A stretch of 64,000 bases of DNA from a virus. Taxonomy: Duplodnaviria; Heunggongvirae; Uroviricota; Caudoviricetes. The stretch is taken from positions 10,565-74,564 of the IMG/VR virus record IMGVR_UViG_2737471844_000002, one strand, 5' to 3'. A program made the translations under genes and the position numbers. This document shows positions 4,641 to 62,513 of the stretch, one piece after another (within the stretch, counting starts at the first letter, position 1; every line of letters starts with the position of its first letter). The notes beneath the pieces were generated by a model. That model saw only the letters and a program-made list of their open reading frames with translations. It was not told the DNA's origin and made no database searches.

Positions 4641-5010
4641 AGCCGGTCAGGCGTATCTGGGGTGGGATGATGCCCTTTATCGCCAGACGCTGGCCCGCCT
4701 GACAGGTAAAACAAGCACCACACGCTGCAACCTCGATGAACTGCGCATCATCCGGGAATACATGCACGAACAGGGATTTCCGCGCAAAGCGCCCGCCGGT
4801 AAAGGTCGCCGCCCCCGTGTTGCAATGAGCAGAAAATCAGTATTATCCAAAATTGAAGCGTTGCTGGCTGATGCCGGTCGTTCCTGGGTGTATGCGGAAG
4901 GACTGGCATCTCACATGTATAAGCAACATGTGATCGAATGGCTGACAGATGATCAGCTGTTTGGGGTGATGGTGGCGCTGGTAAAAGATTCAAGAAGGAG
5001 AAATCAATGA
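4612..5010 (+). CDS. GemA-like (Mu gp16-like) regulatory protein
   Basis: ATG 4612 with gagga SD-like sequence upstream; 132-aa product resembles the Mu GemA/DUF1018 family (from memory). Confidence 0.5.
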   Translation: MLKKMIGAIKAGQAYLGWDDALYRQTLARLTGKTSTTRCNLDELRIIREYMHEQGFPRKAPAGKGRRPRVAMSRKSVLSKIEALLADAGRSWVYAEGLASHMYKQHVIEWLTDDQLFGVMVALVKDSRRRNQ

Positions 5011-5510
5011 TGAAAAAATGGTTGTTTTGTTTAGTAGGGGTTATTTTATCTTTTCCTGCAGCGGCTGAATGGTACGCAGGTGTACAGGAAGATGCATTCA
5101 ACGAACAAAAAACAGCTATGCTGGTTGAGTTAGATAATGGTCGCTTTGGTGTTGTTTTTGATTGCAACAGTGATGGTTTATTCGTATCAGTTGTAGAAAA
5201 ATCAAAGAAAACTGAAAGTGTAACCAAAGAGCTTCCCGTTGATCTAATTTTCAGGATAGATAACCACCCAGCAGTGAAAATGACTGGGGTATTTACACGA
5301 CGAAATGAAAATTTGTACGGGTATAGATCGGATGATGCCAGTAGCATCAAGGAATTGTTATCTTACTTACGTAAAGCAAATGATCGTATTTTAGCCGGTG
5401 CTAAATTTTCTGATGAAAAAAGAGGGATATCGTTTGATATCACGCCAATCGGCTCCACATCAGGTGTTAATAAATTCATCAAAGCCTGTAACATCACGAT
5501 TCCAGAGTAA
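5007..5510 (+). CDS. secreted protein of unknown function (moron)
   Basis: 167-aa ORF with a signal-peptide-like N-terminus (MMKKWLFCLVGVILSFPAAAEW); visibly AT-rich relative to flanking genes; followed by its own terminator. Confidence 0.55.
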   Translation: MMKKWLFCLVGVILSFPAAAEWYAGVQEDAFNEQKTAMLVELDNGRFGVVFDCNSDGLFVSVVEKSKKTESVTKELPVDLIFRIDNHPAVKMTGVFTRRNENLYGYRSDDASSIKELLSYLRKANDRILAGAKFSDEKRGISFDITPIGSTSGVNKFIKACNITIPE

Positions 5511-5520: not shown

Positions 5521-5547
5521 GCCCCTGCCATGCAGGGGCTTTTTTTG
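5521..5547 (+). terminator. rho-independent terminator
   Basis: gcccctgcc atg caggggc hairpin followed by a run of seven T. Confidence 0.6.
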
Positions 5548-5552
5548 TGGTC

Positions 5553-5580
5553 TGTACAGGCGATCATGTATGGCTATAAT
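5553..5580 (+). promoter_or_regulatory. candidate sigma-70 promoter upstream of mor-like gene
   Basis: tgtaca (5553-5558), 16-nt spacer, tataat (5575-5580); about 30 nt upstream of ATG 5610. Confidence 0.3.
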
Positions 5581-5609: not shown

Positions 5610-6077
5610 ATGCAGACCTTCAGTGAAACAGATCTTCGCGATGCACAGGCACTGCTACCCGATTCCGTGCAGCAACTGATTAGCGTGATTGGCTTCCCCG
5701 CCCTGACCCGGTTAATCCGTTCTTTTGGTGGCGTGACGTTAAGCGGTAAAACCGGCGCACACGCCGAACGCACCGGCGGTGTCCATGCCCTGTTACATGA
5801 CGTGCTGACCGAAGACGAAATCAACAAACTGATCCGCTTTCTTGGCGGTGCGCCGTTTTATATTCCCCGTTGCGATCATGCGTTACGTGCCCTGCGTAAC
5901 TCCCGTTTTATGGCTGATTTACAGCAACATATAAAAGGCGGATGCTCACACCGGCAGGCGCTGGCACTGCTTTGTCCACGTTACGGAATTTCAGACCGGT
6001 ACGCATGGCAACTGATACACCGACGACAAAAACAGACTTCGCTGAAAAGCCCCACCCAGGTGGGGCTTTTTGATTAA
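5610..6077 (+). CDS. Mor/C-family transcriptional activator
   Basis: 155-aa ORF; product resembles the Mu Mor / C late-activator family with a C-terminal HTH-like region (from memory). Confidence 0.55.
   Translation: MQTFSETDLRDAQALLPDSVQQLISVIGFPALTRLIRSFGGVTLSGKTGAHAERTGGVHALLHDVLTEDEINKLIRFLGGAPFYIPRCDHALRALRNSRFMADLQQHIKGGCSHRQALALLCPRYGISDRYAWQLIHRRQKQTSLKSPTQVGLFD
6048..6072 (+). terminator. rho-independent terminator overlapping the mor-like stop
   Basis: agccccacc cagg tggggct hairpin followed by ttttt; overlaps the last codons of the ORF. Confidence 0.45.
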
Positions 6078-6500: not shown

Positions 6501-6893
6501 ATGTCTGAACCCATTTCAGGCAGCGGCGCGGTGGCACTGACCATTGGCGGTGCCGGTGTGTACGGCCTTATCACCAATACCGATTTCGGTGTGGTCGTGG
6601 GCGCATTTGCCGGGGCGCTGTTTGTGGTCACCCAGCAAAAAGAAATCCCGGTCTGGCGCATGATTATCCACCTGATTATCGCGTTTGTGGTCGGCGTTCT
6701 GGGGGCCGGTGTGGCGGCGTCACTGATGCAGTGGCTGACCCACTACAACGACAAACCCCTCGACGCGTTATGTGCGGTCGGTGTCTCGGCGCTCTCAATC
6801 AAGATTCTGACGTTTATTTATAAACAGGATATTTCATCGCTGTTTGGCCTGTTTTCACGGCTGCGCGGCGGAGGGGGTGAAAATGGTAAGTAG
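6501..6893 (+). CDS. holin-like membrane protein
   Basis: 130-aa ORF with several hydrophobic helices, immediately upstream of the endolysin. Confidence 0.4.
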   Translation: MSEPISGSGAVALTIGGAGVYGLITNTDFGVVVGAFAGALFVVTQQKEIPVWRMIIHLIIAFVVGVLGAGVAASLMQWLTHYNDKPLDALCAVGVSALSIKILTFIYKQDISSLFGLFSRLRGGGGENGK

Positions 6894-7179
6894 CGTTGCC
6901 GGCATTGTTAACGTCTGGCTGTGTGTCGCCATTGTGTTCGGGTTGTTCGTGTACCGCCGTAAAGGGGCTGTTCATAAACCTGCGGTCACCTGGGCGGCGT
7001 ACTGGCTGATGCTCTGGTACGCCATCATCCCGTTCCGCTGGTTGTTTGGTACGTACACCCACTCCAGCTGGCTGGTTGTGGCGCTTAATCTGGTGTTCTG
7101 TGCGCTCATCGTGTGGGCGCACGGGAATTTGTCGAAAATCCTTTCGTTACTGAGGCATCCACATGAAATCAAAAGATGA
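6883..7179 (+). CDS. membrane protein (holin/antiholin candidate)
   Basis: ATG 6883 preceded by ggagggggtga SD; about three predicted TM segments; overlaps the endolysin start. Confidence 0.35.
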   Translation: MVSSVAGIVNVWLCVAIVFGLFVYRRKGAVHKPAVTWAAYWLMLWYAIIPFRWLFGTYTHSSWLVVALNLVFCALIVWAHGNLSKILSLLRHPHEIKR

Positions 7180-7708
7180 CATTTTTGATGAAGTCCTGGG
7201 CAAAGAAGGCGGTTACGTCAATCACCCGGATGATAAGGGCGGCCCGACCAAATGGGGCATTACGGAAAAAGTCGCCCGCGCCCACGGATACCGTGGCGAT
7301 ATGCGTGAGTTAACCCGCGAACAGGCGCTGGATATCCTTGAAGCCGATTACTGGTATGGCCCGCGATTTGACCAGGTCGCCGCATTATCCCCTGATATTG
7401 CCGCAGAGCTGTGTGATACCGGTGTGAATATGGGGCCAACCGTGGCGTCCAGAATGCTTCAGCGCTGGCTGAACGTTTTCAACCTGCGCGGCAGGCTGTA
7501 CCCGGATATGGATACAGACGGACGCATCGGACCTCGCACCATCAGTGCATTGCGCGCCTTCCTGAATAATCGCGGTCAGGACGGTGAGCGGGTGATGCTG
7601 ACGGCCCTGAACTGCACGCAGGGTGACCGCTATCTGGAACTGGCAGAGAAACGCGAGGCTAACGAATCGTTTGTTTATGGCTGGCTGAAGGAGCGCGTGG
7701 CGGTATGA
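7163..7708 (+). CDS. endolysin, GH108-like muramidase with peptidoglycan-binding domain
   Basis: N-terminal FDEVLGKEGGYVNHPDDKGGPTKWGIT matches the GH108 signature (EGGY..P.D.GG.T..GIT); C-terminal half resembles a PG-binding domain. Confidence 0.7.
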   Translation: MKSKDDIFDEVLGKEGGYVNHPDDKGGPTKWGITEKVARAHGYRGDMRELTREQALDILEADYWYGPRFDQVAALSPDIAAELCDTGVNMGPTVASRMLQRWLNVFNLRGRLYPDMDTDGRIGPRTISALRAFLNNRGQDGERVMLTALNCTQGDRYLELAEKREANESFVYGWLKERVAV

Positions 7709-7887
7709 CGCGTCAGCACTGGACACACAGAACGCCACGTAAAGCCGCGCGCTGTGTTCTGGCCCTGTTTCTGGTGATGTTGCTTCCGGTGGGATGCACA
7801 GACATTAACAGGGCGGGCCAGCTGTTTGACGCGGCGGCGCAGGTCTGCCGGATTGTTGATGGCATCCGGCAGTGTTCGCAGAACTGA
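7705..7887 (+). CDS. putative lipoprotein (spanin candidate)
   Basis: 60-aa ORF with signal-like N-terminus and LLPVGC near-lipobox; position directly after the endolysin. Confidence 0.3.
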   Translation: MTRQHWTHRTPRKAARCVLALFLVMLLPVGCTDINRAGQLFDAAAQVCRIVDGIRQCSQN

Positions 7888-7908: not shown

Positions 7909-8115
7909 GTGAGCATTATCAGATTTACAGAATGCGCAGGTTCAGGGAGCACCAGCGCTGTCATGGTAGTCGCTGAACGCATCACCCATTTTTACCGTCA
8001 GTGTGGTGCATATGGTGGCACGATCATTGAGCTGGATACCGGGAAAAACGTGTATGTTCTTGAAAATCCCGACAAAGTTAAATGCCTGATTGAACAGGCT
8101 CAGAAGGTCACTTAA
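7909..8115 (+). CDS. hypothetical protein
   Basis: 68-aa ORF. Confidence 0.3.
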   Translation: MSIIRFTECAGSGSTSAVMVVAERITHFYRQCGAYGGTIIELDTGKNVYVLENPDKVKCLIEQAQKVT

Positions 8116-8615
8116 TGGCGTGGTCACAGGATATCAGGGACAAAGTCCGTAACGGGTACATCTTTGACCAGCTTCCGCTGGATATCGTCGCCATGAAGTA
8201 CGCCGTGCCGCACGACACCGCGCGGCGCTGGAAAACGCAGGCGATGAAGAACGGCGATGACTGGGACAAGCTGCGGGCCGCGCACGCGCTCGCCGGTGAC
8301 GGGCTGGAAAGTGTCGCCCGCACCGTGCTTATCAGTCTGGTGGTGAAGTGTCAGACGACGCTTGAACGGCTGAACCAGAACCCGGACATCCCGCCGCAGG
8401 AGTCCGTCGAACTGCTGGCGAGTCTGTCTGACAGCCTCAGTAAGGCGGTGGCCAGCAGTAAAAAAATCCTGCCGGAAACCGACCGGCTCGCCACGGCACT
8501 GGAAGTGGTGCAGCGGCTCGGCGCGTTCATCAGGGACCGTCACCCGGCGCAGTATGCCCCGTTTCTTGAGGTGCTCGAAAGCTTCGCTAAAGAGCTTGAG
8601 GATAATTTCAGTTAA
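8115..8615 (+). CDS. Mu gp27-like small terminase subunit (DUF1804-like)
   Basis: 166-aa ORF just upstream of the large terminase; N-terminal region resembles Mu-like gp27 proteins (from memory). Confidence 0.5.
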   Translation: MAWSQDIRDKVRNGYIFDQLPLDIVAMKYAVPHDTARRWKTQAMKNGDDWDKLRAAHALAGDGLESVARTVLISLVVKCQTTLERLNQNPDIPPQESVELLASLSDSLSKAVASSKKILPETDRLATALEVVQRLGAFIRDRHPAQYAPFLEVLESFAKELEDNFS

Positions 8616-8661
8616 CCACAGCGGCCCGGTTTTCCGGGCCGTCTGATATTCGGGATTTGTA

Positions 8662-9402
8662 ATGCAAAAACAGATTATTGGTAACGCAACGTTGTATTGC
8701 GGTGATGTTCTTGATGTGCTGCCGGCGTTATCTGAACGTTTTGATGCCGTCATTACCGACCCGCCTTACAGCAGTGGTGGCACACACAAATCAGACCGCA
8801 GTATGGCCCCTTCGGACAAGTATGTCGGTCACACCCACTATGCCGAGTTCAGCGGGGATAACCGCGACCAGCGCAGCTGGGCATACTGGAGCACCCTGTG
8901 GATGTCCGGGGCTGCCCGCCTTGTGCGCCCCGGTGGTTATTTCATGGTGTTCAGTGACTGGCGACAGCTTCCCACCATGACCGACGTTTTTCAGGCCGGT
9001 GGTGTGCTGTGGCGTGGTCTGGTTGTCTGGGATAAAACGCAGGCTTCCCGTGCGCCACACACTGGCTATTTCCGGCATCAGGCCGAGTATGTGGTCTGGG
9101 GCAGCAACGGAAAACTCGACAAATGCCCGCACGGTGGCCCGTTCCCGGGTGTGATTACGCAGCGTGTTGTCCCGTCCGCAAAACTGCACATGACCGCAAA
9201 GCCGGTTCAGCTGATGGCCGAGCTGGTTAAACCGCTGGCACCGGATGCGCACGTTCTCGATCCGTTTATGGGAAGTGGCACCACCGCCATCCCTGTACTT
9301 GCCCGTGGCGGACGGTTTACCGGCATTGAAATGACTAACCAGTATTTTGATATCGCCTGCGCACGTATCGAAAAAGCGCAGGCAGAAGCAGCGCAGGTGT
9401 GA
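8662..9402 (+). CDS. DNA methyltransferase (amino-MTase, DPPY motif)
   Basis: 246-aa ORF with catalytic DPPYS motif preceding the AdoMet-binding DPFMGSGTT motif (beta-class order); sits between the small and large terminase genes. Confidence 0.75.
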   Translation: MQKQIIGNATLYCGDVLDVLPALSERFDAVITDPPYSSGGTHKSDRSMAPSDKYVGHTHYAEFSGDNRDQRSWAYWSTLWMSGAARLVRPGGYFMVFSDWRQLPTMTDVFQAGGVLWRGLVVWDKTQASRAPHTGYFRHQAEYVVWGSNGKLDKCPHGGPFPGVITQRVVPSAKLHMTAKPVQLMAELVKPLAPDAHVLDPFMGSGTTAIPVLARGGRFTGIEMTNQYFDIACARIEKAQAEAAQV

Positions 9403-9403
9403 C

Positions 9404-11044
9404 GTGGCAAAACGTAAACTTTCCATTAAAGAGTTTCAGAGAAGCCTGCAGGAGTACATCGCCAACCTCCGCCAGACCATCGAGGCTGAATGTCTGGGGT
9501 TCGATGTTAACCCGCAGGCCACACAGGCCCGCCGGGCGGCAGTCTGCGACCCGGTGACGGGCTACGATTATTTTGTCGAAAACTATTTTCCGCACTATGT
9601 CCGCAACCCGGCAAAAAGTGAGCTGCATAAATACCTGTTCAGCCGTCTGCCACAGGTTGTGGCAAGCCCGGACCCGGAGAACGACGCCATCGCCGCGCCC
9701 CGTGGTGAAGCAAAATCCACGCTGGTGACGCAGCTGTTTACCCTGTGGAACATTATCCGGGCCATTAAGCATTACCCGGTCATCATTATGGACAGTATCG
9801 ACCAGGCTTATCCGATGCTGGAAGCCATTAAGGCTGAACTGGAATTTAACCCCCGTTTAAAAAACGATTTCCCGGAAGTGTGCGGACAGGGCCGTGTCTG
9901 GCGTATGGGGACCATCGTCACGGCCAACAATATCAAGGTAACCGTTGCCGGTAGTGGTAAAAAACTGCGTGGTCTGCGCCACGGCCCGTACCGTCCTGAC
10001 CTGGTCATCCTCGACGACATCGAGAACGACGAGATGGTGCGTAACCCGGAGCAGCGCGACAAGCTGCATGACTGGCTCACCAGAACCGTGATGCCGCTGG
10101 GCGAGGCTGGCGGTAAAACCGATATTATTTATATCGGAACCATCCTGCATTACGACTCCGTGCTGTCGCGCACACTCAATAACCCGATGTGGAAAACGGC
10201 CCGCTTTAAGGCGGTCATTCAGTGGCCTGCCAACATGAAGCTGTGGGACGAGTGGGAAGAACTCATCCGCAACAAACAGCCAGAAGCGGCGGAGGCACTT
10301 TATCAGCAGAACGAAGCCGACATGCTCGCCGGGTCGGTGGTGTCATGGGCGGCGCGCCCACTGCTGGCGCTGATGAAAATCCGTGTCCGTGACGGTCACG
10401 ACACCTTTGATTCTGAATACCAGAACGACCCGGTCAGCGGTGAAGATGCGCTGTTTGCGGGCTGCATTAAGTTCTGGGTTAACCGTCTTGATGAATGGGT
10501 GTTTTATGGTGCTGTTGACCCCAGTCTCGGGAAGAAGAATAAAAACCGCGACCCGTCGGCCATTCTCGTGGGGGGCTTTAACCGTTTTACCGGCATTCTG
10601 GATGTGGTTGAAGCCGATATCCGCCGACGTCTGCCAAACAAACTTATCGAAGACGTGATTAAGTATCAGCGGGAATACCACTGTCTGTGCTGGTCGTTTG
10701 AGTCCGTCCAGTTTCAGGAGTTTCTGCGTACCGTGCTGGTTGAGCGTTCGGCGGCGCTGGGCGTGCCGGTTCCGGCGCTGCCGGTCATCCCGCTGGAGGA
10801 TAAGGCGCTGCGCATTGAGTCCCTTCAGCCGCATATGGCCAACGGCCTGATTCGTATCAGCCACACACATCAGACGCTGATTGACCAGCTGCGCCACTAC
10901 CCCAAAGCCGACCACGATGATGGCCCGGACTGTCTGCACATGCTGTGGACGCTGGCGGTATCGCGCAGCGCAAAATTTCAGATTCACACCCCACGCAGCA
11001 CCGGGCGTGACCGTGGCGGGCGTTTTGGTTCAGGAGGATGGTAA
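9404..11044 (+). CDS. terminase large subunit (Mu gp28-like)
   Basis: Large ORF; GTG 9404 chosen because it follows the MTase stop (the track ATG at 9347 overlaps the MTase); Mu-type terminase sequence character. Confidence 0.8.
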   Translation: MAKRKLSIKEFQRSLQEYIANLRQTIEAECLGFDVNPQATQARRAAVCDPVTGYDYFVENYFPHYVRNPAKSELHKYLFSRLPQVVASPDPENDAIAAPRGEAKSTLVTQLFTLWNIIRAIKHYPVIIMDSIDQAYPMLEAIKAELEFNPRLKNDFPEVCGQGRVWRMGTIVTANNIKVTVAGSGKKLRGLRHGPYRPDLVILDDIENDEMVRNPEQRDKLHDWLTRTVMPLGEAGGKTDIIYIGTILHYDSVLSRTLNNPMWKTARFKAVIQWPANMKLWDEWEELIRNKQPEAAEALYQQNEADMLAGSVVSWAARPLLALMKIRVRDGHDTFDSEYQNDPVSGEDALFAGCIKFWVNRLDEWVFYGAVDPSLGKKNKNRDPSAILVGGFNRFTGILDVVEADIRRRLPNKLIEDVIKYQREYHCLCWSFESVQFQEFLRTVLVERSAALGVPVPALPVIPLEDKALRIESLQPHMANGLIRISHTHQTLIDQLRHYPKADHDDGPDCLHMLWTLAVSRSAKFQIHTPRSTGRDRGGRFGSGGW

Positions 11045-11047
11045 TTA

Positions 11048-12643
11048 ATGGCACAGCTTGTTGATATTTACGGACGCCCGCTGAAACGTGAGGCACTCAA
11101 AACCACGCAGACGGTCAGAGTGGCGGAACGGCTGCGCATTTATCCAGACCACCCGTCGCGTGGTCTGAACATCAGAAAACTGCCGCGCATTCTGGAAGCC
11201 GCCGAGCGTGGTTATCTTCCTGCGCAGGCGATGCTGTTTGCGGATATGGAAGAGCGTGACGGGCACCTGTTCGCCGAGATGGAAAAGCGCAAAAAAGCGT
11301 TGCTGACGCTGGACTGGTCGGTGGAGCCGCCCCGCAATACCTCGAAGGCAGAAAAGGAGCTGGCCGCCGCCGTGGATGAATGGCTGCACGGCATCCCGGA
11401 CATGGAGGACATCATCCTCAACGGGATGACCAGTGTCGGTTACGGCTTCAGCTGTCAGGAAATCAGCTGGGCGTTCGTGGATAAAACGTGGTTACCGGAT
11501 GCGGTGACGCTGCGCCCGCATAACTGGTTCATTACCCTGCCGGAACACAATGACGAACTCCGGCTGGATGACGGCGGTCGCGGGGAAGACGGTAAGGACG
11601 GTTCCGCGCTGTGGCCGTTCGGCTGGCTGGTTCACCGTTACAACGCCCGGTCGGGATTTCTGGGTTCATCCGGTCTGTTCCGCGTACTGGTCTGGCCGTA
11701 TCTGTTCAAAAACTTTGCGCTGCGTGATATGGCGGAATTCCTGGAGATTTACGGCCTTCCGGCGCGTATTGCGTACTATGCACAGGGCACCAGTGACGAA
11801 GACCGGGACAACATTCTCGAAGCCCTGGTCAATCTGGGCCATGAAGCGGTGGCAGCCCTGCCGCAGGGTAACGAGATTGAGTTCAAGGAGGCCGCGTCCG
11901 GCGGACCGGAGGCGTTCATGTCGATGGTGGAATGGGCAGAGCGCACCACCTCAAAAGCAATTCTGGGCAGTACGCTGACCAGCCAGGCTGACGGTAAAAC
12001 CTCCACCAACGCGCTGGGTAATGTGCATAACGAGGTCCGGCACGACATTCTGGCCGCCGATGCGCGCCAGCTGTCCGGCATGTTCAGCAGCCTGATACAG
12101 ATGATGGCCAGCCTGAACGGCTGGCAGGATATCCCGCCACGCCGTCTGCCGCGTCTGGTGTTTGATGTGCAGCAGGAAGCCGACATTAAGGGCGTGGCGG
12201 AAGCCGTCAGTGTGCTGGTCAACAGTGTGGGGATGAAGGATATCCCGGCGTCGTGGGTGCGCAAAAAAACCGGTATCCCCACCCCGAAAGACGGCGAAGA
12301 GGTGCTGGTGCCGGTGGCACAGCGTCTCCCTGTGCAGGCGGGCCTCAGCCAGCTGCGTGAGCGGATGAATGTTGCCGCACTCAGTCAGCAGGACAACGGG
12401 GAGGACGACCTGGCACAGAACGCCATCGACCGGGCAGAGCTTCCGGCAGAGGCCATCGCGCAGGGGATGAACGAACTGGTGGCCCCACTGGTGCAGGCCA
12501 TACAGGAAGGCCGGGATGCAGACGAGGCCATGAACATACTGGCGGAAGCCTGGCCGGAACTGCCGGATGACACGCTGCGGCAGTTGCTGACGCAGGCATT
12601 CTTTGTGGCGGATATCTGGGGGCGACTGAATGCCGACAGCTGA
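11048..12643 (+). CDS. portal protein (Mu gp29-like, DUF935)
   Basis: 531-aa ORF immediately after the terminase; Mu-type portal sequence character. Confidence 0.8.
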   Translation: MAQLVDIYGRPLKREALKTTQTVRVAERLRIYPDHPSRGLNIRKLPRILEAAERGYLPAQAMLFADMEERDGHLFAEMEKRKKALLTLDWSVEPPRNTSKAEKELAAAVDEWLHGIPDMEDIILNGMTSVGYGFSCQEISWAFVDKTWLPDAVTLRPHNWFITLPEHNDELRLDDGGRGEDGKDGSALWPFGWLVHRYNARSGFLGSSGLFRVLVWPYLFKNFALRDMAEFLEIYGLPARIAYYAQGTSDEDRDNILEALVNLGHEAVAALPQGNEIEFKEAASGGPEAFMSMVEWAERTTSKAILGSTLTSQADGKTSTNALGNVHNEVRHDILAADARQLSGMFSSLIQMMASLNGWQDIPPRRLPRLVFDVQQEADIKGVAEAVSVLVNSVGMKDIPASWVRKKTGIPTPKDGEEVLVPVAQRLPVQAGLSQLRERMNVAALSQQDNGEDDLAQNAIDRAELPAEAIAQGMNELVAPLVQAIQEGRDADEAMNILAEAWPELPDDTLRQLLTQAFFVADIWGRLNADS

Positions 12644-13796
12644 CGATGTTGACCTGGGTTATGCGTATACCCTGAAACCGGAAGAAGCGATTACGTATTT
12701 CGAAAGCAAGGGATACGTTATCGGCTTCCGCTGGCACGATGTGAGGGACATCGCCAGTGCCCGGGCGTTCACGGTGGCAGGCGTGCTGAAACTGGATGTT
12801 CTGAAGGATATCCGTGATGGCCTGACGACGACACTGGCTGATGGCGGGACGTTCCGGGAGTTTGCAGCACAACTGGAACCACTGCTGGAATCAAAAGGCT
12901 GGCTGGGTAAAAAGCTGATTGTGGACGAGGACACCGGCGAACTGCACGGCAGACAGCTGACGCCGCGCCGGTTGCGCACGATATTTGATACCAACATTCA
13001 GTCCGCCTATAACGCCGGGCGTTATCAGCAACAGATGGCGAACGTGGCTGACCGGCCTTATTTTGAGCGCGTGGCGGTGATGGACCTTCACACCCGCCCG
13101 AAACACGCCGCCCTGAACGGTTTTACCGCCCGGGCGGATGACCCGGTCTGGGAGTATTTCTACGCGCCGGACGGATACGGATGCCGCTGCCGTATCCGGG
13201 CGCGTTCAGCGTCTGATGTGGAGAAATACGGCCTGACGGTGCAGAGCAGCGAGGGGCGGCTGGTTGAGGTTGAACAGGAATATGGTCAGCCGGGCCAGAC
13301 CATCAGAACGATGGGGCTGAAGATGCCGGACGGCTCCGTGTATACCGCCGACCCGGGCTTCGGATTTAATCCCGGTCGGGTGGCATGGCAGCCGGAACCG
13401 GAAAAATACGATTACCGCAGCGCCCGCCAGTATGTCACCGGCACTCTGACCGGGCCGGATTTTGCCCGGGGACTGGCGAACGTCAGCGAACTGGATGCGC
13501 GCCAGCGATATCCGCTGGCCATCCGTTCACCGGAACAGGTCGCCGCCACGGGCGCTGCACGGCAGACGGTAAACCTTACGGCTGATGTCATGAAGCGCCT
13601 CAGTGCAGCAGACACGCCCCCGACCGCCGCCGACTATGTGCTGATGCAGCAGACCATCGAACGGGCGGAGCATGTCACACAGGACGGCAACGCGTGGCGG
13701 TATGCGTTACAGTCGGGCGACCGCTGGTCGGTGGTGACGGTGGAGGATGACGCGCTGACAGACTGGGTTATGCAGGATACCCCGGAGGCATCATGA
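12630..13796 (+). CDS. head morphogenesis protein (Mu F-like)
   Basis: 388-aa ORF overlapping the portal stop; resembles the Mu F / minor head family. Confidence 0.7.
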   Translation: MPTADDVDLGYAYTLKPEEAITYFESKGYVIGFRWHDVRDIASARAFTVAGVLKLDVLKDIRDGLTTTLADGGTFREFAAQLEPLLESKGWLGKKLIVDEDTGELHGRQLTPRRLRTIFDTNIQSAYNAGRYQQQMANVADRPYFERVAVMDLHTRPKHAALNGFTARADDPVWEYFYAPDGYGCRCRIRARSASDVEKYGLTVQSSEGRLVEVEQEYGQPGQTIRTMGLKMPDGSVYTADPGFGFNPGRVAWQPEPEKYDYRSARQYVTGTLTGPDFARGLANVSELDARQRYPLAIRSPEQVAATGAARQTVNLTADVMKRLSAADTPPTAADYVLMQQTIERAEHVTQDGNAWRYALQSGDRWSVVTVEDDALTDWVMQDTPEAS

Positions 13797-30050: not shown

Positions 30051-31475
30051 ATGTCTGTATTAATTTCAGGGGCGCTGATTAATGGCGCTGGCGTTCCGAT
30101 GGCGGAATGCAAAATTTATTTAGATGCACTGGTTAATACCAGTGAAGTGGTCACTGAGTCATTTGCGGTTATTGAAACCGATGCGGCGGGACAGTATGCC
30201 TTTGAAGCACAAAAAGGCAAATACACCGTACACATCAAGCAAAAGAACGGCCCCAAGTGCTGCGTGGGTGACATTTCGGTTTACGACGACTCAAAGCCCG
30301 GCACGCTGAACGACTTTCTGACTGCCCTTGATGAAAGCGATTTAAAGCCGGATGTAGTGAAACGCTTTGAGGAACTGGCGCAACAGGCACAGCAGAGCGC
30401 GGAAGCCGCCGCTGGCAGCGAACAACAGGCAGGACAACACGCCACTGATGCACAGCAGATTAAGGCCGACTGTCAGGCGCTGGCGAAAGACGTACAGCAG
30501 AACGCCGACGCGGTTGCGGAGGGTAAACAACAGGTCGAAAATCTGGTCTCACAGGTTGAGAATGCCGCCGAGGAGGTAAAAAAGGACGCTGAAGCTGCTA
30601 AACAGGCCGCATCTGATGCAGAGCATGTCAGGGAGGATATTGACACCGCGTTATCTGCGACACTGAAAACGGCGAATCGTTTATCAGAGCTGGCTGATGA
30701 AGGTGAAGAGGCTCAGCAGGAATCCCGTGATAATCTTGGACTGAAAAGCGCTGCCACAATGACGCCACAGAGCGACATTCGTGACCGGACTGAAGGTCGT
30801 CTGGCGACACCTGGCGCATTTGGTTTTGGGCATATTTTTTTGCCCGCAGAGCGGATCCGTTTTAACACAGAGGATGATTTTCTGTCCTGGGTAAGGAATG
30901 CGACGCCGGGTGAATATTTTGTTGAGGGTGGCAGTAAAATCATATCCGGAGGTGTGTTGTTTAACGGGGTGGTCAGCATCCGGTGGGTTGAGGCACGCAA
31001 TAATCCACCGGAACCGCGATATACATCAAAGGCCATTATTTTCTACGGTATCAATGGCGATGTTTATTACAGCCGCTACTGGACAACAGGTAATGGTTAT
31101 CTGACTGGCTGGGAAAATCTGAAAATTACCTCACAGGACATTATCTCTCTTCTGTCCGGTATTGCTCCCGGTACCACGGACGGCTGGTACGGTGCAGGCA
31201 GTCTTGTACTGGCGGCTTATAACGGTAAGGGAGACGCAGACACCGACCGCCGGATAAAACGCGGTTACAGCTATCCGGGGTCACGCCTGAGCGCGGTTGA
31301 ATTTATGTGTCACGGCACGACCGGTAGCGGGGTTGGATATAACGGCAGCGTTTCCGTATATGTGCGGAGTTCTGGTGGTGGTATGCCGGGGTCATATCGG
31401 GCACTGTCAGGTGATGGGCTCGGGTCTGCCGGGTCAGCCAGTGTCATGATTGGTTTGTTCATACGTATTGCGTAG
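30051..31475 (+). CDS. side tail fibre protein (Phage_fiber_N / Stf-like)
   Basis: 474-aa ORF; N-terminus resembles lambdoid side-tail-fibre N domains, followed by an Ala/Gln-rich coiled segment. Confidence 0.65.
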   Translation: MSVLISGALINGAGVPMAECKIYLDALVNTSEVVTESFAVIETDAAGQYAFEAQKGKYTVHIKQKNGPKCCVGDISVYDDSKPGTLNDFLTALDESDLKPDVVKRFEELAQQAQQSAEAAAGSEQQAGQHATDAQQIKADCQALAKDVQQNADAVAEGKQQVENLVSQVENAAEEVKKDAEAAKQAASDAEHVREDIDTALSATLKTANRLSELADEGEEAQQESRDNLGLKSAATMTPQSDIRDRTEGRLATPGAFGFGHIFLPAERIRFNTEDDFLSWVRNATPGEYFVEGGSKIISGGVLFNGVVSIRWVEARNNPPEPRYTSKAIIFYGINGDVYYSRYWTTGNGYLTGWENLKITSQDIISLLSGIAPGTTDGWYGAGSLVLAAYNGKGDADTDRRIKRGYSYPGSRLSAVEFMCHGTTGSGVGYNGSVSVYVRSSGGGMPGSYRALSGDGLGSAGSASVMIGLFIRIA

Positions 31476-31482
31476 GTGTTTT

Positions 31483-32049
31483 ATGGAAATAAAACGCATC
31501 GAAAATGCGCGTTATCTTGAAAATGGCGCGATTGACTGCGGGGTGTTGTTTGATGGCATGGATGAACCGGTTCCGTATACGGCAACTGCCACGGATACAG
31601 CAGAGACAGGGCAGCGAGTCTGGCAGGAGCTGCAAAGTGGGAGATGGGGAGAAATAACGCCGTTCACCGTCACGCCAGAGATGCTGGAAGCAGCAAAAGC
31701 AGCCAAACGCCGGGAAATTGAAGCATGGCGCACAGAACAGGAGGCGCAGCCATTCATTTTTGAATGGAACGGCCATAGCTGGAACGGGGGACCGGATTCT
31801 ATGGCCCGTCTTTACCCGGTGGTGATGTCAGCAAAATCAGTCACGGCACGGAAATCTATGGTATGGGGTGATGCGGAAAATCAGCAGGTAAAGTTGTCAA
31901 TGCAACAACTGGATGAACTGCTTACTGCAATGGTTCAGGCGCAGGTCGATCGCAATGACGAGATTTATCGCCGTCAGCGGGAGATGAAGGAAACACTGGC
32001 GGGGCTGGATGACCTGAACACCATCAGAAGTCTGCCCATCAGTGAATAA
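31483..32049 (+). CDS. tail fibre assembly protein (Tfa-like)
   Basis: ATG 31483 within track ORF 31450-32049; Tfa-like sequence character. Confidence 0.6.
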   Translation: MEIKRIENARYLENGAIDCGVLFDGMDEPVPYTATATDTAETGQRVWQELQSGRWGEITPFTVTPEMLEAAKAAKRREIEAWRTEQEAQPFIFEWNGHSWNGGPDSMARLYPVVMSAKSVTARKSMVWGDAENQQVKLSMQQLDELLTAMVQAQVDRNDEIYRRQREMKETLAGLDDLNTIRSLPISE

Positions 32050-32142: not shown

Positions 32143-32183
32143 AAATAGTCCAGAAAAAATCGCGAAGTTACACACGCGGCGCG

Positions 32184-34727
32184 GTGGATGAAGCCATGGC
32201 CTCGCTGCGCCTGCTGCCGTCCTATCTGCGCGATCCGCTTATTCGCCACCTCTCCTTCCTTCGCAAAAAACAGGAAGCCGATCGCCGGAAAGGCAAAAAG
32301 AGCTGGCAGGCGGAACGCTATGCACGCGGAACCCTGCGCAAAATATTCGAACGTCTGGATCGCACTGACGGACGCTGGCTGACACCGGGTTATCGCTCCC
32401 TTGCCGGACGCGAACGCCTGGACGATTTGCTTTACCTGCCGCAGCTCAACAAACACCAGATACAGACGTTGGCCACCATGACGGCGGCGATGTTCAGCAG
32501 CACCTTCGAAAAGCTCTGCGATGGCTTTGGCGCCAGAGATGGCGAGCTGACCATGGATGTAATGTTGAAGGCTTACCGGATGCTGGCTCGTATCGCATTA
32601 CGCCTGCACATCATGCCGCCACATTACGAAGCCCTGAACAAGAGCGAACCGGATACGGAACTGCTGCCGGGCGCAATCCTTCGCCTGACCTGTGCGGACT
32701 GGTGGAAACGCAAACTGTGGCTGTTACGTTGCGAGTGGAGAGAAGAACAACTCCGCGCCGCCTGTCTGGTTTCCAGAAAAACATCGCCTTATCTGAGCCA
32801 GGACGCGTTAAGCGAGTTTCGCGCACAGCGCGAGAAAACACGCGATTTCCTGAAAAGTTTCATGCTGGAAAACGAAGACGGGTTCACGATTGATCTCGAG
32901 ACAGTGTATTACGCGGGAGTAAGTAACCCGGTTCACCGTAAGGCAGAAATGATGGCCACCATGAAGGGGCTGGAACTTCTGGCCGAAGCCCGTGGTGACA
33001 AAGCGGTGTTTCTGACTGTCACCTGCCCGTCAAAATACCACGCAACAACGGAGAACGGTCATCCGAATCCCAAATGGAACGGGGCCACCATGCGCGACTC
33101 CAGCGATTACCTGGTTAACACGTTTTTTGCGGCGGTCCGCAAGAAACTGAACCGCGACGGCCTGCGCTGGTATGGCATCCGCACGGTGGAGCCTCACCAT
33201 GACGGCACCGTGCACTGGCATATGATGGTCTTTGCCCATCCGGAAGAAATCGACACCATTGTGTCCCACACCCGCGATATTGCCATTCAGGAAGATCGTC
33301 ACGAGCTGGGCGATGATATTACTCCGCGCTTTAAGGCGGAGTATGTCGACGGCTCAAAAGGCACGCCAACCAGCTACATCGCCACCTACATCGGAAAAAA
33401 CCTGGACAGCCGCGCCGTGGATGGCATCGCCCCGAAAACAGGCAAACCACGCGTTGACCACGAAACCGGAAAATCAATGGCCGAGAGCGTGGAGCGCGCC
33501 ATCGGCTGGGCGCGCCTTCACCGGGTCCGCCAGTTCCAGTTCTTTGGCATCCCCTCCCGTCAGGTGTGGCGTGAACTGCGCCGCCTTGCCAGCCAGATGG
33601 CACGCAACCCGGAAGGCCCGCAACGGCTGAAGGACGACGCAATGGATGCGGTACTCGCTGCCGCTGATGCCGGGTGTTTTGCCTCCTACATTGAAAAACA
33701 GGGTGGCGTACTTGTTCCACGCAAGGACTACCTGATTCGCACCGCCTACGACCTCGCAGATGAGCTGAACGATTACGGCGAACAGAGCGTACAGATTTAC
33801 GGGATCTGGTCACCACTCATCGGGGAATCCTCCCGTGTGTGCACGCACCCGGATAACTGGAAGCTGGTAAGACGTAAACCGGAAGCGGAAGACAGCGCCC
33901 GCGAAAATTGTTTTGACCTTCAGGGCGGCCCTGCCGCCCCTTGGACTCGTGGCAATAACTGTCCCCGTGTACAGGAAACGGACAACAACGGGACAGAACA
34001 GCCGGAAGAACGGCCAGCACCGTGGCCGCAGCTTCCTGACGGCGTTGATGTGGATGAATGGATGCGCTCACTGAAACGGCACGAACGCCGGGCGCTGATG
34101 CGTTCGCTGCGTGACAAACAGGCCAAAAACAGCAGTGATGAAATGCAGAACTGGACACAGAGCCGCAAACAGCCACAGCCTTTGCCTGATAAACACGAAT
34201 TACTCGCTAAAGAATGGCGGGAGTCTGCCGAATCTCTCGGCCTGCATATCGGTGAACAGCAGATGCAGCACCTGTTACGGGGCGGCAGCCTGTACGTTGA
34301 CGGCAGCATCATTGCACCGCAGGGATTTGAAATTGTACGCAAACCGGATACCCGCCCGGACAGCCGAATCACGCAGCTCTGGCAGCGCCTGAGCCGTAAT
34401 CACGGCGTAAGCAGCACGGAGATCCGCCATAACCCGGTCGCCAGCTATCTGGCACAGCTCGGGGCATCAGACCCCGAAGCCGCCGCACGCCTGGCATCCA
34501 CACTTCAGCAGGACCAGAACACCATGAAAACACCCGTTACCGTGCTTTCTGACATGCTGCGCGCCATTCGTGACGCAGAGCACGCACAGAGAATCAGTGA
34601 AACCACTGAACACGCCCGCCGCAAAGCAGACCTGCTGCGGGGTAGCCTGACCAGTGGCAACAAAAAACAGACAGAAACGGGATTCACAAATCCCGCAAAT
34701 GAGCAAAAAACGCGCCGCGATATATGA
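32184..34727 (+). CDS. A: P2-type replication initiation endonuclease gpA
   Basis: 847-aa ORF (GTG 32184 or ATG 32196); contains the rolling-circle initiator signatures VEPHHDGTVHWHMM and YIATYIGKNLD (paired Tyr). Confidence 0.8.
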   Translation: MDEAMASLRLLPSYLRDPLIRHLSFLRKKQEADRRKGKKSWQAERYARGTLRKIFERLDRTDGRWLTPGYRSLAGRERLDDLLYLPQLNKHQIQTLATMTAAMFSSTFEKLCDGFGARDGELTMDVMLKAYRMLARIALRLHIMPPHYEALNKSEPDTELLPGAILRLTCADWWKRKLWLLRCEWREEQLRAACLVSRKTSPYLSQDALSEFRAQREKTRDFLKSFMLENEDGFTIDLETVYYAGVSNPVHRKAEMMATMKGLELLAEARGDKAVFLTVTCPSKYHATTENGHPNPKWNGATMRDSSDYLVNTFFAAVRKKLNRDGLRWYGIRTVEPHHDGTVHWHMMVFAHPEEIDTIVSHTRDIAIQEDRHELGDDITPRFKAEYVDGSKGTPTSYIATYIGKNLDSRAVDGIAPKTGKPRVDHETGKSMAESVERAIGWARLHRVRQFQFFGIPSRQVWRELRRLASQMARNPEGPQRLKDDAMDAVLAAADAGCFASYIEKQGGVLVPRKDYLIRTAYDLADELNDYGEQSVQIYGIWSPLIGESSRVCTHPDNWKLVRRKPEAEDSARENCFDLQGGPAAPWTRGNNCPRVQETDNNGTEQPEERPAPWPQLPDGVDVDEWMRSLKRHERRALMRSLRDKQAKNSSDEMQNWTQSRKQPQPLPDKHELLAKEWRESAESLGLHIGEQQMQHLLRGGSLYVDGSIIAPQGFEIVRKPDTRPDSRITQLWQRLSRNHGVSSTEIRHNPVASYLAQLGASDPEAAARLASTLQQDQNTMKTPVTVLSDMLRAIRDAEHAQRISETTEHARRKADLLRGSLTSGNKKQTETGFTNPANEQKTRRDI

Positions 34728-34768
34728 AGCGCGCACAAAACAGGCGAAAGCGGGATTTAAAAATCCCG
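34677..34768. promoter_or_regulatory. two CGGGATT-N4-AATCCCG palindromes (candidate ParR centromere/operator)
   Basis: cgggattcacaaatcccg at 34677-34694 and cgggatttaaaaatcccg at 34751-34768, just upstream of parM. Confidence 0.35.
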
Positions 34769-34803
34769 TAAACGGTTAATTAACCAACATAAGGAAAATC
34801 GAC

Positions 34804-35763: not shown

Positions 35764-35767
35764 ACCA

Positions 35768-36079
35768 ATGACGACTCCAACCAGACGGATAAGTTTCTAT
35801 CTGAAGCCCACCGCCGTCAAGAACGAAGGAGAAGCATGCGCCTGGCTGGACAGCCTTACACCAGAAGCCCGCAAAAGCGGCCAACGCGTGGCTTTTCTGG
35901 CCGGGCTGGCACTTCTGAAAATGAATCCGGCAGAGGCTTACCGACTGGCTGCATGGGCTGATGATGAGGTGTTATCAGTGACACAAACCAAGACAGAACG
36001 CCCCGCGTCACAGCCAGTATCAACCGCACAGATAACCAGTCAGATGGCCGGAAATATCCGGGCGTTATTTCCTGAATAA
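35768..36079 (+). CDS. parR: ParR/StbB-like partition adaptor
   Basis: ATG 35768 five nt after the parM stop; 103-aa product with N-terminal RISFYLKP...LDSLTPEARKSGQ pattern resembling R1 ParR. Confidence 0.5.
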   Translation: MTTPTRRISFYLKPTAVKNEGEACAWLDSLTPEARKSGQRVAFLAGLALLKMNPAEAYRLAAWADDEVLSVTQTKTERPASQPVSTAQITSQMAGNIRALFPE

Positions 36080-55460: not shown

Positions 55461-55556
55461 AGTAGAAACCTCAACAGTTTTATCAGGACCTACGATATAT
55501 TATATAACAACAAGCCGCCCATTACCCAATATGAAGGTATTGGCGGCAATGTAAAA

Positions 55557-56051: not shown

Positions 56052-56057
56052 GACTCC

Positions 56058-59381: not shown

Positions 59382-59435
59382 CAGGAAATTCCTTTCAGTC
59401 AGAGGCGACGCACTGCGCCGCCTGCATATTACTTA

Positions 59436-62399: not shown

Positions 62400-62513
62400 A
62401 CAACTTAGATGCATTAGCCCTGACATTTGCTAACGCGCTTACAGCAAGAATCATAACCAATCTGACAGCCTACCCGGTGTCAAAATCAGAAGAGCCTTAC
62501 ATTAGAATATGTT

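What the first reader, a model, noticed from the sequence alone, without database searches (positions are those of the whole stretch)
8662..9402. Orphan DNA methyltransferase inserted between the small and large terminase genes of the Mu-like phage
A DPPY-motif amino-methyltransferase with no adjacent restriction endonuclease sits between the gp27-like and large terminase genes. In that position it would be expressed with the packaging genes and could methylate phage DNA before or during packaging. This would be an anti-restriction function, analogous in purpose to Mu mom though mechanistically different. The large terminase start appears coupled to its stop.
Basis: partly seen in the sequence, partly recalled or inferred. 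Interest (0 to 1): 0.5.

Follow-up and report, generated by a model that had tools for sequence, protein, structure and literature searches.

The report
Solitary phage DNA methyltransferase before terminase
A transposable (Mu-like) prophage carries a stand-alone DNA adenine methyltransferase gene slotted immediately in front of its large terminase gene, most likely to pre-methylate phage DNA against host restriction; this is a real but ordinary kind of phage cargo gene whose target sequence is still unknown.

Summary
ORF 8662-9402 (+) encodes a 246-aa beta-class amino-methyltransferase (DPPY first, FxGxG last; Pfam PF01555). It has no nuclease partner. It lies between a small DNA-binding gene (8115-8615) and the large terminase, whose GTG (9404) follows the MTase TGA by one base.

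It is a discrete cassette. Among 55 E. coli genomes with this prophage, 35 (plus one partial) carry it and 19 have an empty site where 7 nt replace 743 nt. The gene is under purifying selection. Its divergence between genera is in the same range as that of the backbone genes.

The junction is a cargo hotspot in related phages. The same MTase family sits at other late-operon junctions of Mu-like phages. In P2-like phages it sits directly behind a Com translational regulator, the place mom holds in Mu. This prophage has no com or mom.

One correction: the upstream gene is DUF1804 (D3112 orf24 type), not a Mu gp27 homologue.

The anti-restriction role is the best-supported inference but is untested, and the specificity is unknown. 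RefSeq already annotates the gene as a DNA methyltransferase, and methyltransferases beside terminase genes are a described theme. Verdict: new member of a known kind, modest interest.

The parts
5610..6077 (+). Mor/C-family transcription activator, presumed activator of the late operon that contains the MTase
   Evidence: Pfam PF08765 Mor, E 1.1e-06. It is preceded by a terminator-like hairpin at 5521-5539 and a promoter-like site at 5553-5580.
6501..7708 (+). Lysis genes (two holin-like ORFs and a GH108 endolysin) at the head of the same-strand gene run
   Evidence: GH108 plus PG_binding_3 for 7163-7708. The holin annotation comes from the E2348/69 copy.
8115..8615 (+). DUF1804 protein (D3112 orf24 type, predicted DNA-binding), in the small-terminase position
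   Evidence: PF08822, E 1.4e-52, and PHROG 756 'DNA binding protein'. It is not in the Mu gp27 family.
8619..8645 (+). G+C-rich hairpin (GGCCCGG-TTTT-CCGGGCC) just after the DUF1804 stop, with no T-tract
   Evidence: The 76-nt stretch folds at -26 kcal/mol, z = -3.9. The hairpin is present in both filled and empty sites, including Trabulsiella, Intestinirhabdus and Buttiauxella.
8651..9393 (+). The 743-nt segment present only in MTase-bearing copies. Empty sites have TGTATAC in its place.
   Evidence: Alignment of the filled junctions with the UMNF18 empty site. The span difference 1889 against 1153 is 736, which equals 743 minus 7.
8662..9402 (+). Solitary beta-class DNA (probably N6-adenine) methyltransferase, 246 aa
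   Evidence: Family matches. AF2 model pLDDT 85.6. The nearest solved folds are CcrM, M.BceJIV and M1.HpyAVI. dN/dS is 0.04-0.32.
8758..8769 (+). Catalytic motif IV, DPPY (residues 33-36)
   Evidence: Invariant in 30 homologues.
9265..9279 (+). AdoMet-binding motif I, F-M-G-S-G (residues 202-206)
   Evidence: D200-P-F-M-G-S205 is invariant in 30 homologues.
9394..9403 (+). CAGGTGTGAC: the last two sense codons and the stop of the MTase, which are at the same time the resident TerL leader with its SD-like AGGTG
   Evidence: The same 10 nt precede the TerL GTG in empty sites.
9404..11044 (+). Large terminase (GTG start), 546 aa
   Evidence: PHROG 38, E 3.2e-143; TIGR01630. The start is as annotated in E2348/69 and UMNF18.
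11048..13796 (+). Mu-type portal and Mu F head-morphogenesis genes (context)
   Evidence: PF06074, E 7.4e-96; PF04233, E 8.9e-23.
32161..32174 (+). Right end of the Mu-like prophage (...CGCGAAGTTACACA). No com or mom lies before it.
   Evidence: The same terminal sequence is found at the prophage/eutC junction in E2348/69. tblastn with Com and a CxxC scan were negative.

Best explanation
What it is. The gene encodes a solitary Type II beta-class DNA methyltransferase, most likely forming N6-methyladenine. It is carried as a cargo cassette in the leader of the large-terminase gene of a transposable Mu-like prophage.

How it most likely works.
1. In the lysogen the gene is silent, like the rest of the late genes.
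2. After induction it is transcribed as part of the long same-strand lysis-packaging-head operon driven by the Mor/C-family activator.
3. It is translated from its own SD-like GGGA.
4. Ribosomes that finish it at TGA 9400-9402 can restart 1 nt downstream at the TerL GTG. This keeps TerL expression intact despite the insertion.
5. The enzyme methylates the replicated phage copies, and the host DNA around them, late in the cycle.
6. Headful-packaged DNA therefore enters the next host already methylated and escapes restriction systems whose sites include the modified adenine.

It fills the role that com-mom fills in Mu, which this phage lineage lacks.

Shown here: the gene, its family, motifs and fold; its solitary state; the filled/empty polymorphism and exact junctions; purifying selection; the absence of com and mom; and the link between Com and other members of the family.

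Inferred: late co-transcription, translational coupling, adenine as the target base, and the anti-restriction benefit.

Unknown: the recognition sequence.
For: Identity
- PF01555 at 83 bits, PHROG 67 at 3.5e-55, PADLOC Type II MTase at 1.8e-64.
- Motif order is DPPY first and FxGxG last, both invariant in the family.
- AF2 model has pTM 0.85. Its top solved neighbours are N6-adenine MTases: CcrM, M.BceJIV and M1.HpyAVI, at E about 1e-15.
- The best PDB sequence match is M1.HpyAVI, 1.2e-14.

Likely functional
- dN/dS is 0.04-0.32 against nine variants.
- The protein is full length relative to hundreds of homologues.

Cassette
- 35 filled (plus one partial) against 19 empty sites, in prophages whose flanks are 96-98% identical.
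- The exact junctions are defined.
- The TerL SD and start are preserved.

Late context
- The same-strand gene run extends from 5610 to beyond 14344.
- The scan found no strong intrinsic terminator on that strand between the lysis genes and TerL, only one weak match at 7832-7850.

Mom-like role
- The prophage ends at 32174 with no com or mom.
- 29 of 103 loci holding family members have Com immediately upstream. Examples are Escherichia phage Chuche, Stenotrophomonas phage Smp131 and P2-like viral contigs.
- In other Mu-like phages the family is found at portal|F, TerL|portal, after F, and holin|lysozyme. These look like repeated independent placements in late operons.

Precedent
- Unrelated Dam-type MTases replace mom in FluMu, Pnme1 and the H. 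influenzae biotype aegyptius prophage, and make DNA resistant to many restriction enzymes (PMC3299994).
- Prophage MTases such as M.EcoGII are silent in lysogens (PMC5778455).
Against: - No expression, methylation or plating data exist for this protein, or for any close relative, in the literature I could search.
- No late promoter was mapped.
- The hairpin at 8619-8645 just upstream could attenuate transcription or affect translation.
- 19 of 55 otherwise near-identical E. coli prophages lack the gene, so it is dispensable.
- A single specificity protects only against restriction systems that share that site, so the benefit may be narrow.
- Family members in other phages sit in early operons (BPP-1 bpm follows cro), so late timing is not a family rule.
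Confidence: 0.6

Rival explanations
1. Regulatory or packaging role. The methyltransferase marks phage or host DNA to control gene expression, transposition or packaging, as Dam methylation controls P1 pac cleavage and the Mu mom promoter. On this view it does not act mainly against restriction.
For: The position directly between the DNA-binding gene and TerL. DNA-modification genes cluster next to terminase genes in many phages, and a link with packaging has been proposed (PMC6536676, citing Iyer et al. 2013). Several roles of phage Dam homologues are listed in PMC5005818.
Against: Near-identical prophages lack the gene, so packaging does not depend on it. In other phages the same family sits behind Com, next to an invertase, or after cro, which does not fit a terminase-specific job. 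The junction also holds unrelated cargo in relatives.
Confidence: 0.12
2. Lysogenic-conversion role. The gene is expressed from the prophage and methylates the host chromosome. This would change host gene expression or protect the lysogen's DNA, for example against a methylation-sensitive nuclease of another element.
For: Orphan MTases can act as epigenetic regulators, as discussed in PMC6602927. Accessory genes in phage late regions often have their own expression. The family also occurs as an oppositely oriented insert in Burkholderia P2-like phages.
Against: No promoter-like site was found between 5580 and the gene, and it is embedded in the late operon on the same strand. Comparable prophage MTases are silent in lysogens (PMC5778455, PMC6602927). 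Com control of relatives points to tightly restricted, late expression.
Confidence: 0.1
3. N4-cytosine rather than N6-adenine methyltransferase. The rest of the logic stays the same but the modified base differs.
For: PF01555 covers both activities. N4-cytosine enzymes (the bdelloid N4CMT 8s9m-o, M.PvuII) are among the structural neighbours.
Against: Motif IV is DPPY, not the SPPY/SPPF typical of N4C enzymes (established knowledge of the family). The best sequence and fold matches are all adenine enzymes. The 52%-identical BPP-1 Bpm is recorded as an adenine methylase.
Confidence: 0.08
4. Inactive relic: a decaying cargo gene with no present function.
For: Absent from 19 of 55 related E. coli prophages. 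No methylated motif has been attributed to it in the literature I could search.
Against: The ORF is intact and all catalytic motifs are invariant. dN/dS is well below 1. The gene is conserved at the same slot in Intestinirhabdus, Buttiauxella and other enterobacterial contigs at 76-82% identity.
Confidence: 0.05

Closest known systems
Com-linked methyltransferases of P2-like phages (Escherichia phage Chuche PP925824, Stenotrophomonas phage Smp131)
   Same: Same protein family: 55% identity over 237 residues to Chuche and 46% to Smp131. Same size and the same invariant motifs. All are solitary cargo of temperate phages.
   Different: In those phages the gene follows a Com zinc-ribbon translational regulator (PF10122, E 1.1e-11) near the prophage end or after the portal gene. 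Here there is no Com, and the gene is spliced into the terminase leader of a Mu-like phage. As far as I could find, none of these enzymes has been characterised.
Hia5 / Hin1523 / Nma1821, non-specific m6A methyltransferases of Mu-like prophages (Drozdz et al. 2012, PMC3299994)
   Same: A solitary adenine MTase carried by a Mu-like prophage that lacks mom. The proposed job is the same: broad protection of phage DNA from restriction.
   Different: Those enzymes are Dam-related, with FxGxG before DPPY. [quoted passage not shown] The enzyme here is beta class, with DPPY at residue 33, and sits in front of TerL. Whether it is non-specific is unknown.
Mu com-mom
   Same: A late-expressed modification of adenine in phage DNA that defeats restriction. 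The function is analogous.
   Different: Mom is not a methyltransferase: it makes N6-(1-acetamido)adenine and belongs to the acyltransferase superfamily (PMC3299994). There is no homology, the position differs, and there is no Com here.
M.EcoGII (non-specific beta-class adenine MTase of E. coli lambdoid prophages, PMC5778455)
   Same: Beta class, prophage-borne and solitary. It is silent in the lysogen and toxic when expressed.
   Different: Similarity is at motif level only: 30% over 63 residues to its homologue in phage 1720a-02. It is 349-352 aa against 246 aa here, and it lies downstream of Q in lambdoid phages.
ParB-Tls locus methyltransferases (Iyer et al. 2013, as described in PMC6536676)
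   Same: DNA-modification genes placed immediately upstream of the large terminase gene, after a DNA-binding protein gene.
   Different: The upstream gene here is DUF1804, not ParB, and the MTase has no ParB domain.
Bordetella phage BPP-1 Bpm
   Same: 52% identical and recorded as an adenine methylase. Same family.
   Different: It is the second gene of the early rightward operon, between cro and the primase gene, in a short-tailed phage.
M1.HpyAVI, CcrM, M.BceJIV (solved beta-class N6-adenine MTases)
   Same: Same fold and the same motif order. M1.HpyAVI is similarly small (232 aa).
   Different: Only 20-24% identity. Those are chromosomal enzymes with known sites. The 117-147 segment that is strongly conserved in this family is specific to the family.

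Membership tests
Beta-class (Type II, subtype beta) N6/N4 amino-methyltransferases, Pfam PF01555 | Score above the curated Pfam threshold | tested here: met
   83 bits against a cut-off of 26.7.
Beta-class (Type II, subtype beta) N6/N4 amino-methyltransferases, Pfam PF01555 | Motif order: catalytic (D/S)PP(Y/F) at the N-terminal end, then the recognition region, then FxGxG at the C-terminal end | tested here: met
   DPPY at 33-36 and FMGSG at 202-206.
Beta-class (Type II, subtype beta) N6/N4 amino-methyltransferases, Pfam PF01555 | Rossmann-type MTase fold like the solved beta-class enzymes | tested here: met
   AF2 model pTM 0.85. Foldseek top hits are CcrM, M.BceJIV, M1.HpyAVI, M.MboIIA, M.RsrI and M.PvuII.
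Beta-class (Type II, subtype beta) N6/N4 amino-methyltransferases, Pfam PF01555 | AdoMet-dependent methyl transfer to DNA | not testable with these tools
   Needs expression and methylome or biochemical assays.
Solitary (orphan) phage methyltransferase | No cognate restriction endonuclease next to it or elsewhere in the element | tested here: met
   The neighbours are DUF1804 and TerL. Pfam scans of the larger prophage ORFs found no nuclease of restriction type. Not every ORF was scanned.
com-mom type modification module | Com zinc-ribbon translational activator immediately upstream | tested here: not met
   tblastn with Chuche Com and a CxxC...CxxC scan of the prophage were negative. Only 46 nt separate the DUF1804 stop from the MTase start.
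com-mom type modification module | [quoted passage not shown] | tested here: not met
   The gene is at 8.7 kb. The right end is at 32174.
Hia5/Hin1523 family of non-specific MTases | Dam-related sequence with FxGxG before DPPY | tested here: not met
   The motif order here is the opposite. The family is described as Dam-related in PMC3299994. Hia5 itself was not available for direct alignment.
Hia5/Hin1523 family of non-specific MTases | Methylation of adenine in nearly any sequence context | not testable with these tools
   Needs a methylome of DNA exposed to the enzyme.
M.EcoGII family | Close sequence relationship to M.EcoGII/M.EcoGI | tested here: not met
   Only 30% identity over 63 residues around motif I to the phage 1720a-02 homologue.
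ParB-Tls modification locus | Modification gene directly upstream of the large terminase gene | tested here: met
   The MTase stop is 1 nt from the TerL start.
ParB-Tls modification locus | ParB-like gene or domain on the upstream side | tested here: not met
   The upstream gene is DUF1804 only. The MTase has no extra domain.
Plasmid PRK13699 methylase (NF010253), CcrM (NF050803), YhdJ-type PRK11524 (NF008572) | Score above the curated NCBIfam cut-off | tested here: not met
   74 against 244, 54 against 830, and 40 against 292 bits.
Mu gp27 small terminase family (PF11985), for the upstream gene | Match to Phage_Mu_Gp27 | tested here: not met
   The window protein hits only DUF1804. Mu gp27 hits PF11985 at 1.3e-52. 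BLASTP between the two gives E 0.49.

The most novel reading that the evidence does not exclude
This small and very conserved beta-class family may be a third, independent lineage of mom-substitute enzymes. That would mean methyltransferases with a very short or nearly absent sequence requirement, toxic enough that phages keep them either behind a Com translational switch or buried in the late packaging operon.

Hints, none decisive:
- 29 of 103 family loci have Com immediately upstream.
- The presumed DNA-contact segment, residues 117-147, is almost invariant across distantly related proteobacterial hosts. This argues for one shared recognition mode rather than many specificities.
- The protein is minimal in size, with no separate recognition domain.
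Probability: 0.2. Interest if true: 0.5.

Novelty: new member of a known kind. Interest (0 to 1): 0.25.

Why it matters
If the enzyme is active, it determines which restriction barriers this widespread E. coli prophage can cross. The prophage is present in 55 of the 5426 complete E. coli genomes searched, including EPEC E2348/69. The natural filled and empty variants offer a ready-made isogenic pair for testing that.

The family is common in temperate phages: 397 clusters at 50% identity match at E <= 1e-30. I found no characterised member. One methylome experiment would therefore annotate many genes. If the specificity proved very relaxed, the enzyme would also be a compact (246 aa) tool of the M.EcoGII/Hia5 kind.

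As it stands, the finding adds an example to well-described themes: solitary phage methyltransferases, modification genes beside terminase genes, and cargo hotspots in Mu-like phages.

Tried and rejected
- **Mu gp27 homology of the upstream gene.** Rejected. The TerL is also not BLASTP-similar to Mu gp28. The packaging pair is of the D3112 type.
- **Com or Mom in the window.** None found.
- **Relationship to Pseudomonas phage B3 ORF48, the known Com-linked MTase of a Mu-like phage.** None. B3 ORF48 has DPPY at residue 178 and is Dam-like.
- **Close relationship to M.EcoGII.** Rejected.
- **Membership of the curated NCBIfam MTase families** (PRK13699, CcrM, PRK11524). All scores are far below the cut-offs.
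- **Nucleotide match to sequenced phages.** None.
- **Scan of genome contigs with the DUF1804 protein.** It gave only five loci. These were still informative: two filled, two empty, one with other cargo.
- **Direction of the filled/empty polymorphism.** Not resolvable. The empty allele (…GATATT-TGTATAC-CAGGTG…) is not a simple deletion of the present filled allele.
- **Literature.** I found no characterisation of BPP-1 Bpm, no E2348/69 methylome, and no methylated motif assigned to a Mu-like prophage MTase in E. coli. Two papers, PMC344406 and PMC3763556, are not held.
- **The variable patch at MTase residues 75-89 between E. coli alleles.** It lies in a helix before the conserved PGG motif, not in the presumed DNA-contact loop. 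I did not treat it as evidence of a specificity switch.

Full report
**1. The observation**

- It matches Pfam PF01555 (N6_N4_Mtase) at 83 bits against a curated cut-off of 26.7.
- It matches PHROG 67 'DNA methyltransferase' at 3.5e-55.
- It matches a PADLOC Type II methyltransferase model end to end at 1.8e-64.
- DPPY lies at residues 33-36 and F-M-G-S-G at 202-206. That is the motif order of the beta class.

The upstream ORF 8115-8615 is DUF1804 (1.4e-52). The downstream ORF is the large terminase (PHROG 38, 3.2e-143; TIGR01630). The Mu-type portal and Mu F follow it.

The MTase TGA (9400-9402) is separated by a single C from the GTG (9404) that NCBI's pipeline uses as the terL start in E. 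coli E2348/69 and UMNF18. An SD-like AGGTG sits inside the last MTase codons.

Neither neighbour is a nuclease. Pfam scans of the larger ORFs of the prophage found no restriction-type nuclease.

**2. What element this is**

The window starts inside a transposable prophage.
- Nearly the same prophage (87-95% nucleotide identity along its length) is present in EPEC E2348/69. That copy has a MuA-type transposase, a MuB-like ATPase, GemA, a Mor-family activator, lysis genes and Mu-type head and tail genes, and it is inserted in eutC.
- In the window the prophage ends at about 32174 with the same terminal sequence as in E2348/69.
- There is no com and no mom. The last genes are tail-fibre genes, and a tblastn search with a bona fide Com plus a zinc-ribbon pattern scan were negative.

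- It is not gp27-like by sequence. Mu gp27 belongs to PF11985.
- The window protein hits only DUF1804, and the two are not significantly similar.
- Its relatives are D3112 orf24 and its kin in Pseudomonas, Ralstonia, Klebsiella and other transposable phages.
- It occupies the small-terminase position and is annotated as a DNA-binding protein. That role is positional inference.

**3. A discrete cassette in a cargo hotspot**

A query made of the DUF1804 gene joined directly to the start of terL finds 55 E. coli complete genomes.
- In 35 of them (plus one partial copy) the two halves are 742 nt apart and a 'DNA-methyltransferase' is annotated between them.
- In 19 the query aligns in one piece, with no methyltransferase.

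Alignment of a filled site with an empty site (UMNF18) shows that window 8651-9393 (743 nt) is replaced by TGTATAC.
- On the left, both alleles share the G+C-rich hairpin that follows the DUF1804 stop.
- On the right, both share CAGGTGTGAC-GTG.
- The last two sense codons and the stop codon of the MTase are therefore the resident terL leader and SD. The cassette supplies its own SD-like GGGA and an ATG.

The same tidy arrangement (SD, stop, one base, GTG) is seen in Intestinirhabdus and Buttiauxella copies. A Trabulsiella prophage has the empty arrangement, with the hairpin directly before terL.

I could not tell whether the empty E. coli allele is ancestral or a loss. Three points argue for long residence in this phage lineage rather than recent capture.
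- The MTase diverges between genera in the same range as the backbone genes: 79-82% identity, against 75-78% for DUF1804 and 88-91% for TerL.
- Its G+C (0.571) matches its flanks.
- It is under purifying selection, with dN/dS 0.04-0.32.

The junction holds other cargo in relatives:
- a reverse-oriented orf25 in D3112;
- three small ORFs in a Klebsiella phage;
- three ORFs in Salmonella prophages;
- a Cys-rich 144-aa ORF overlapping the terL start in Morganella.

**4. The protein and its family**

Sequence and fold:
- The closest solved sequence is H. pylori M1.HpyAVI, 1.2e-14.
- An AlphaFold model built on 30 homologues has pLDDT 85.6 and pTM 0.85.
- Its nearest solved folds are CcrM, M.BceJIV and M1.HpyAVI, all N6-adenine enzymes of the beta class.
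- DPPY (rather than SPPY/F), these neighbours, and the 'adenine methylase' label of the 52%-identical Bordetella phage BPP-1 Bpm make N6-adenine the likely product. This is an inference.

Family size and conservation:
- The family is large: 397 clusters at 50% identity match at E <= 1e-30.
- Beyond the catalytic motifs, the stretch W117-G147 (WRG..W.K...R.PH.GYFRHQ.EY..WG) is almost invariant across distantly related proteobacterial hosts.
- Part of that stretch (residues 129-136) is the only very-low-confidence loop of the model. That fits a DNA-contact loop that orders on binding (inference).
- The enzyme is not close to M.EcoGII.
- It is not related to B3 ORF48.
- It has the opposite motif order to the Dam-related Hia5 family.

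**5. Where the family sits in other phages**

I classified the genes flanking the family member in 103 loci. These came from IMG/VR contigs, sequenced phages and genomes, and the neighbour clusters were checked against Pfam.

| Context of the MTase | Loci |
|---|---|
| Com zinc-ribbon gene immediately upstream (P2-like phages of the Chuche and Smp131 types) | 29 |
| DUF1804, MTase, Mu-type TerL, as in this window | 16, plus 5 with extra small ORFs |
| Between a DNA invertase and the P2 tail sheath gene | 12, plus 4 with sheath only |
| Between Mu portal and Mu F | 4 |
| Between TerL and Mu portal | 1 |
| After Mu F | 1 |
| Between cro and primase (BPP-1 type) | 4 |
| Between holin and lysozyme (Salmonella Mu-like prophages) | 2 |

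The remaining loci had other or unclassified neighbours.

Two things follow.
- In Mu-like phages the gene has been placed at several different junctions of the late lysis/packaging/head operon. That fits selection for late expression.
- In P2-like phages the same family takes the place that mom has behind com in Mu. Chuche's Com scores 1.1e-11 against PF10122, and its MTase is 55% identical to the window's.

**6. Mechanism and rivals**

The best-supported model is the conventional one. The gene is a late-expressed solitary adenine methyltransferase that pre-methylates replicated phage DNA before headful packaging, so that it survives restriction in the next host. This stands in for the missing com-mom module.

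Support for late co-expression is structural.
- The genes form an unbroken same-strand run from the Mor-family activator gene through lysis, MTase, terminase, portal and head genes.
- No promoter-like site lies in front of the MTase.
- The scan found no strong intrinsic terminator on that strand, only one weak match at 7832-7850.

Precedents:
- Unrelated methyltransferases replace mom in other Mu-like prophages and confer resistance to many restriction enzymes (PMC3299994).
- Prophage methyltransferases such as M.EcoGII are silent in lysogens and harmful when expressed constitutively (PMC5778455).
- Modification genes placed just upstream of the large terminase gene are a described theme, the 'ParB-Tls locus' (PMC6536676).

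Rivals:
- A packaging or regulatory role is weakened by the 19 natural prophages without the gene and by the family's many other positions.
- A lysogen-expressed epigenetic role has no promoter support.
- N4-cytosine specificity is made unlikely by the motif and the nearest neighbours.
- An inactive relic is contradicted by conservation and purifying selection.

**7. Novelty and verdict**

RefSeq already annotates this gene as 'DNA-methyltransferase' in dozens of genomes. The class, the solitary state, the placement next to the terminase and the mom-substitute idea all have precedents.

What this analysis adds:
- the exact cassette boundaries and the filled/empty polymorphism;
- the correction about gp27;
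- the recognition that the junction is a cargo hotspot;
- the link between this particular family and Com in P2-like phages.

The recognition sequence and the biological effect remain unknown. I found no experimental work on any close relative. I rate it a new member of a known kind, with modest interest. The most novel reading still open is that the family has very relaxed specificity like Hia5 or M.EcoGII. I give that about one chance in five.

Noticed in passing
window 32161-32230, 32223-36079, 55551-64000: The Mu-like prophage ends at about 32174. It abuts a P2-family prophage that is 95-97% identical to Escherichia phage Chuche. The homology resumes at Chuche position 14487, about 320 nt inside Chuche's replication gene A (which starts at 14166). 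The transposable prophage therefore appears to have inserted into, and disrupted, the replication gene of a resident P2-like prophage.
   Followed up: partly
just beyond window 64000 (window 63378-64000 = Chuche 7945-8567): In Chuche the com-methyltransferase cassette starts about 230 nt after the point where the window ends. The P2-like prophage here may therefore carry a Com-controlled paralogue (55% identical) of the MTase under study. This is not visible in the window.
   Followed up: no
window 36458-37540 and 37537-39741: An AAA ATPase plus an S8 subtilase pair matches the IetA/IetS anti-phage defence system (PADLOC 3.6e-89 and 6.6e-41). It lies inside the P2-like prophage, next to a ParM-like gene (34804-35763).
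   Followed up: partly
window 8619-8645; L009, L010, L011, L045 at the equivalent place: A perfect G+C-rich hairpin (GGCCCGG-loop-CCGGGCC) without a T-tract follows the DUF1804 stop codon. It is there in every enterobacterial copy examined, whether or not the MTase is present. Its function is unknown; it could be an attenuator, an RNA-stability element or a recombination site.
   Followed up: partly
L012 5494-5928 (Morganella morganii CYJ1); L116 4003-4539 (D3112 orf25); L117 3994-4899; L005 8529-9592: The DUF1804|terL junction holds unrelated cargo in other transposable phages. One example is a Cys-rich 144-aa ORF with four CxxC pairs and no Pfam match, whose stop overlaps the terL start (ATGACTAA). 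The junction behaves as an accessory-gene hotspot.
   Followed up: partly
window 8884-8928 and 8974-8988 (MTase residues 75-89 and 105-109): E. coli alleles of the MTase fall into two types that differ by a dense patch of substitutions (W75F, STL77-79CSM, ARLVR84-88LHRLN, TM105-106AL, V109A). The flanking genes stay 97-99% identical. This looks like a short recombination tract.
   Followed up: partly
window 5521-5580: A strong terminator-like hairpin with a T-run (5521-5539) is followed at once by a promoter-like site (5553-5580, 10 of 12 matches). Both lie in front of the Mor/C-family activator gene, so this gene probably has its own middle-type transcription unit.
   Followed up: no
window 1-32172: GATC occurs only 32 times in the 32-kb prophage, against roughly 125 expected for a random sequence of that length. 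CTGCAG occurs twice.
   Followed up: no
window 5007-5510: A 167-aa ORF with a hydrophobic N-terminus lies between GemA and the activator gene. It has no match in Pfam or PADLOC.
   Followed up: no
L015 10461-10553 (E2348/69): The E2348/69 copy of the prophage keeps a truncated Gin/Hin-type invertase start next to inverted tail-fibre genes at its right end. The window's copy has different tail-fibre genes (30051-32049) and no invertase remnant.
   Followed up: no
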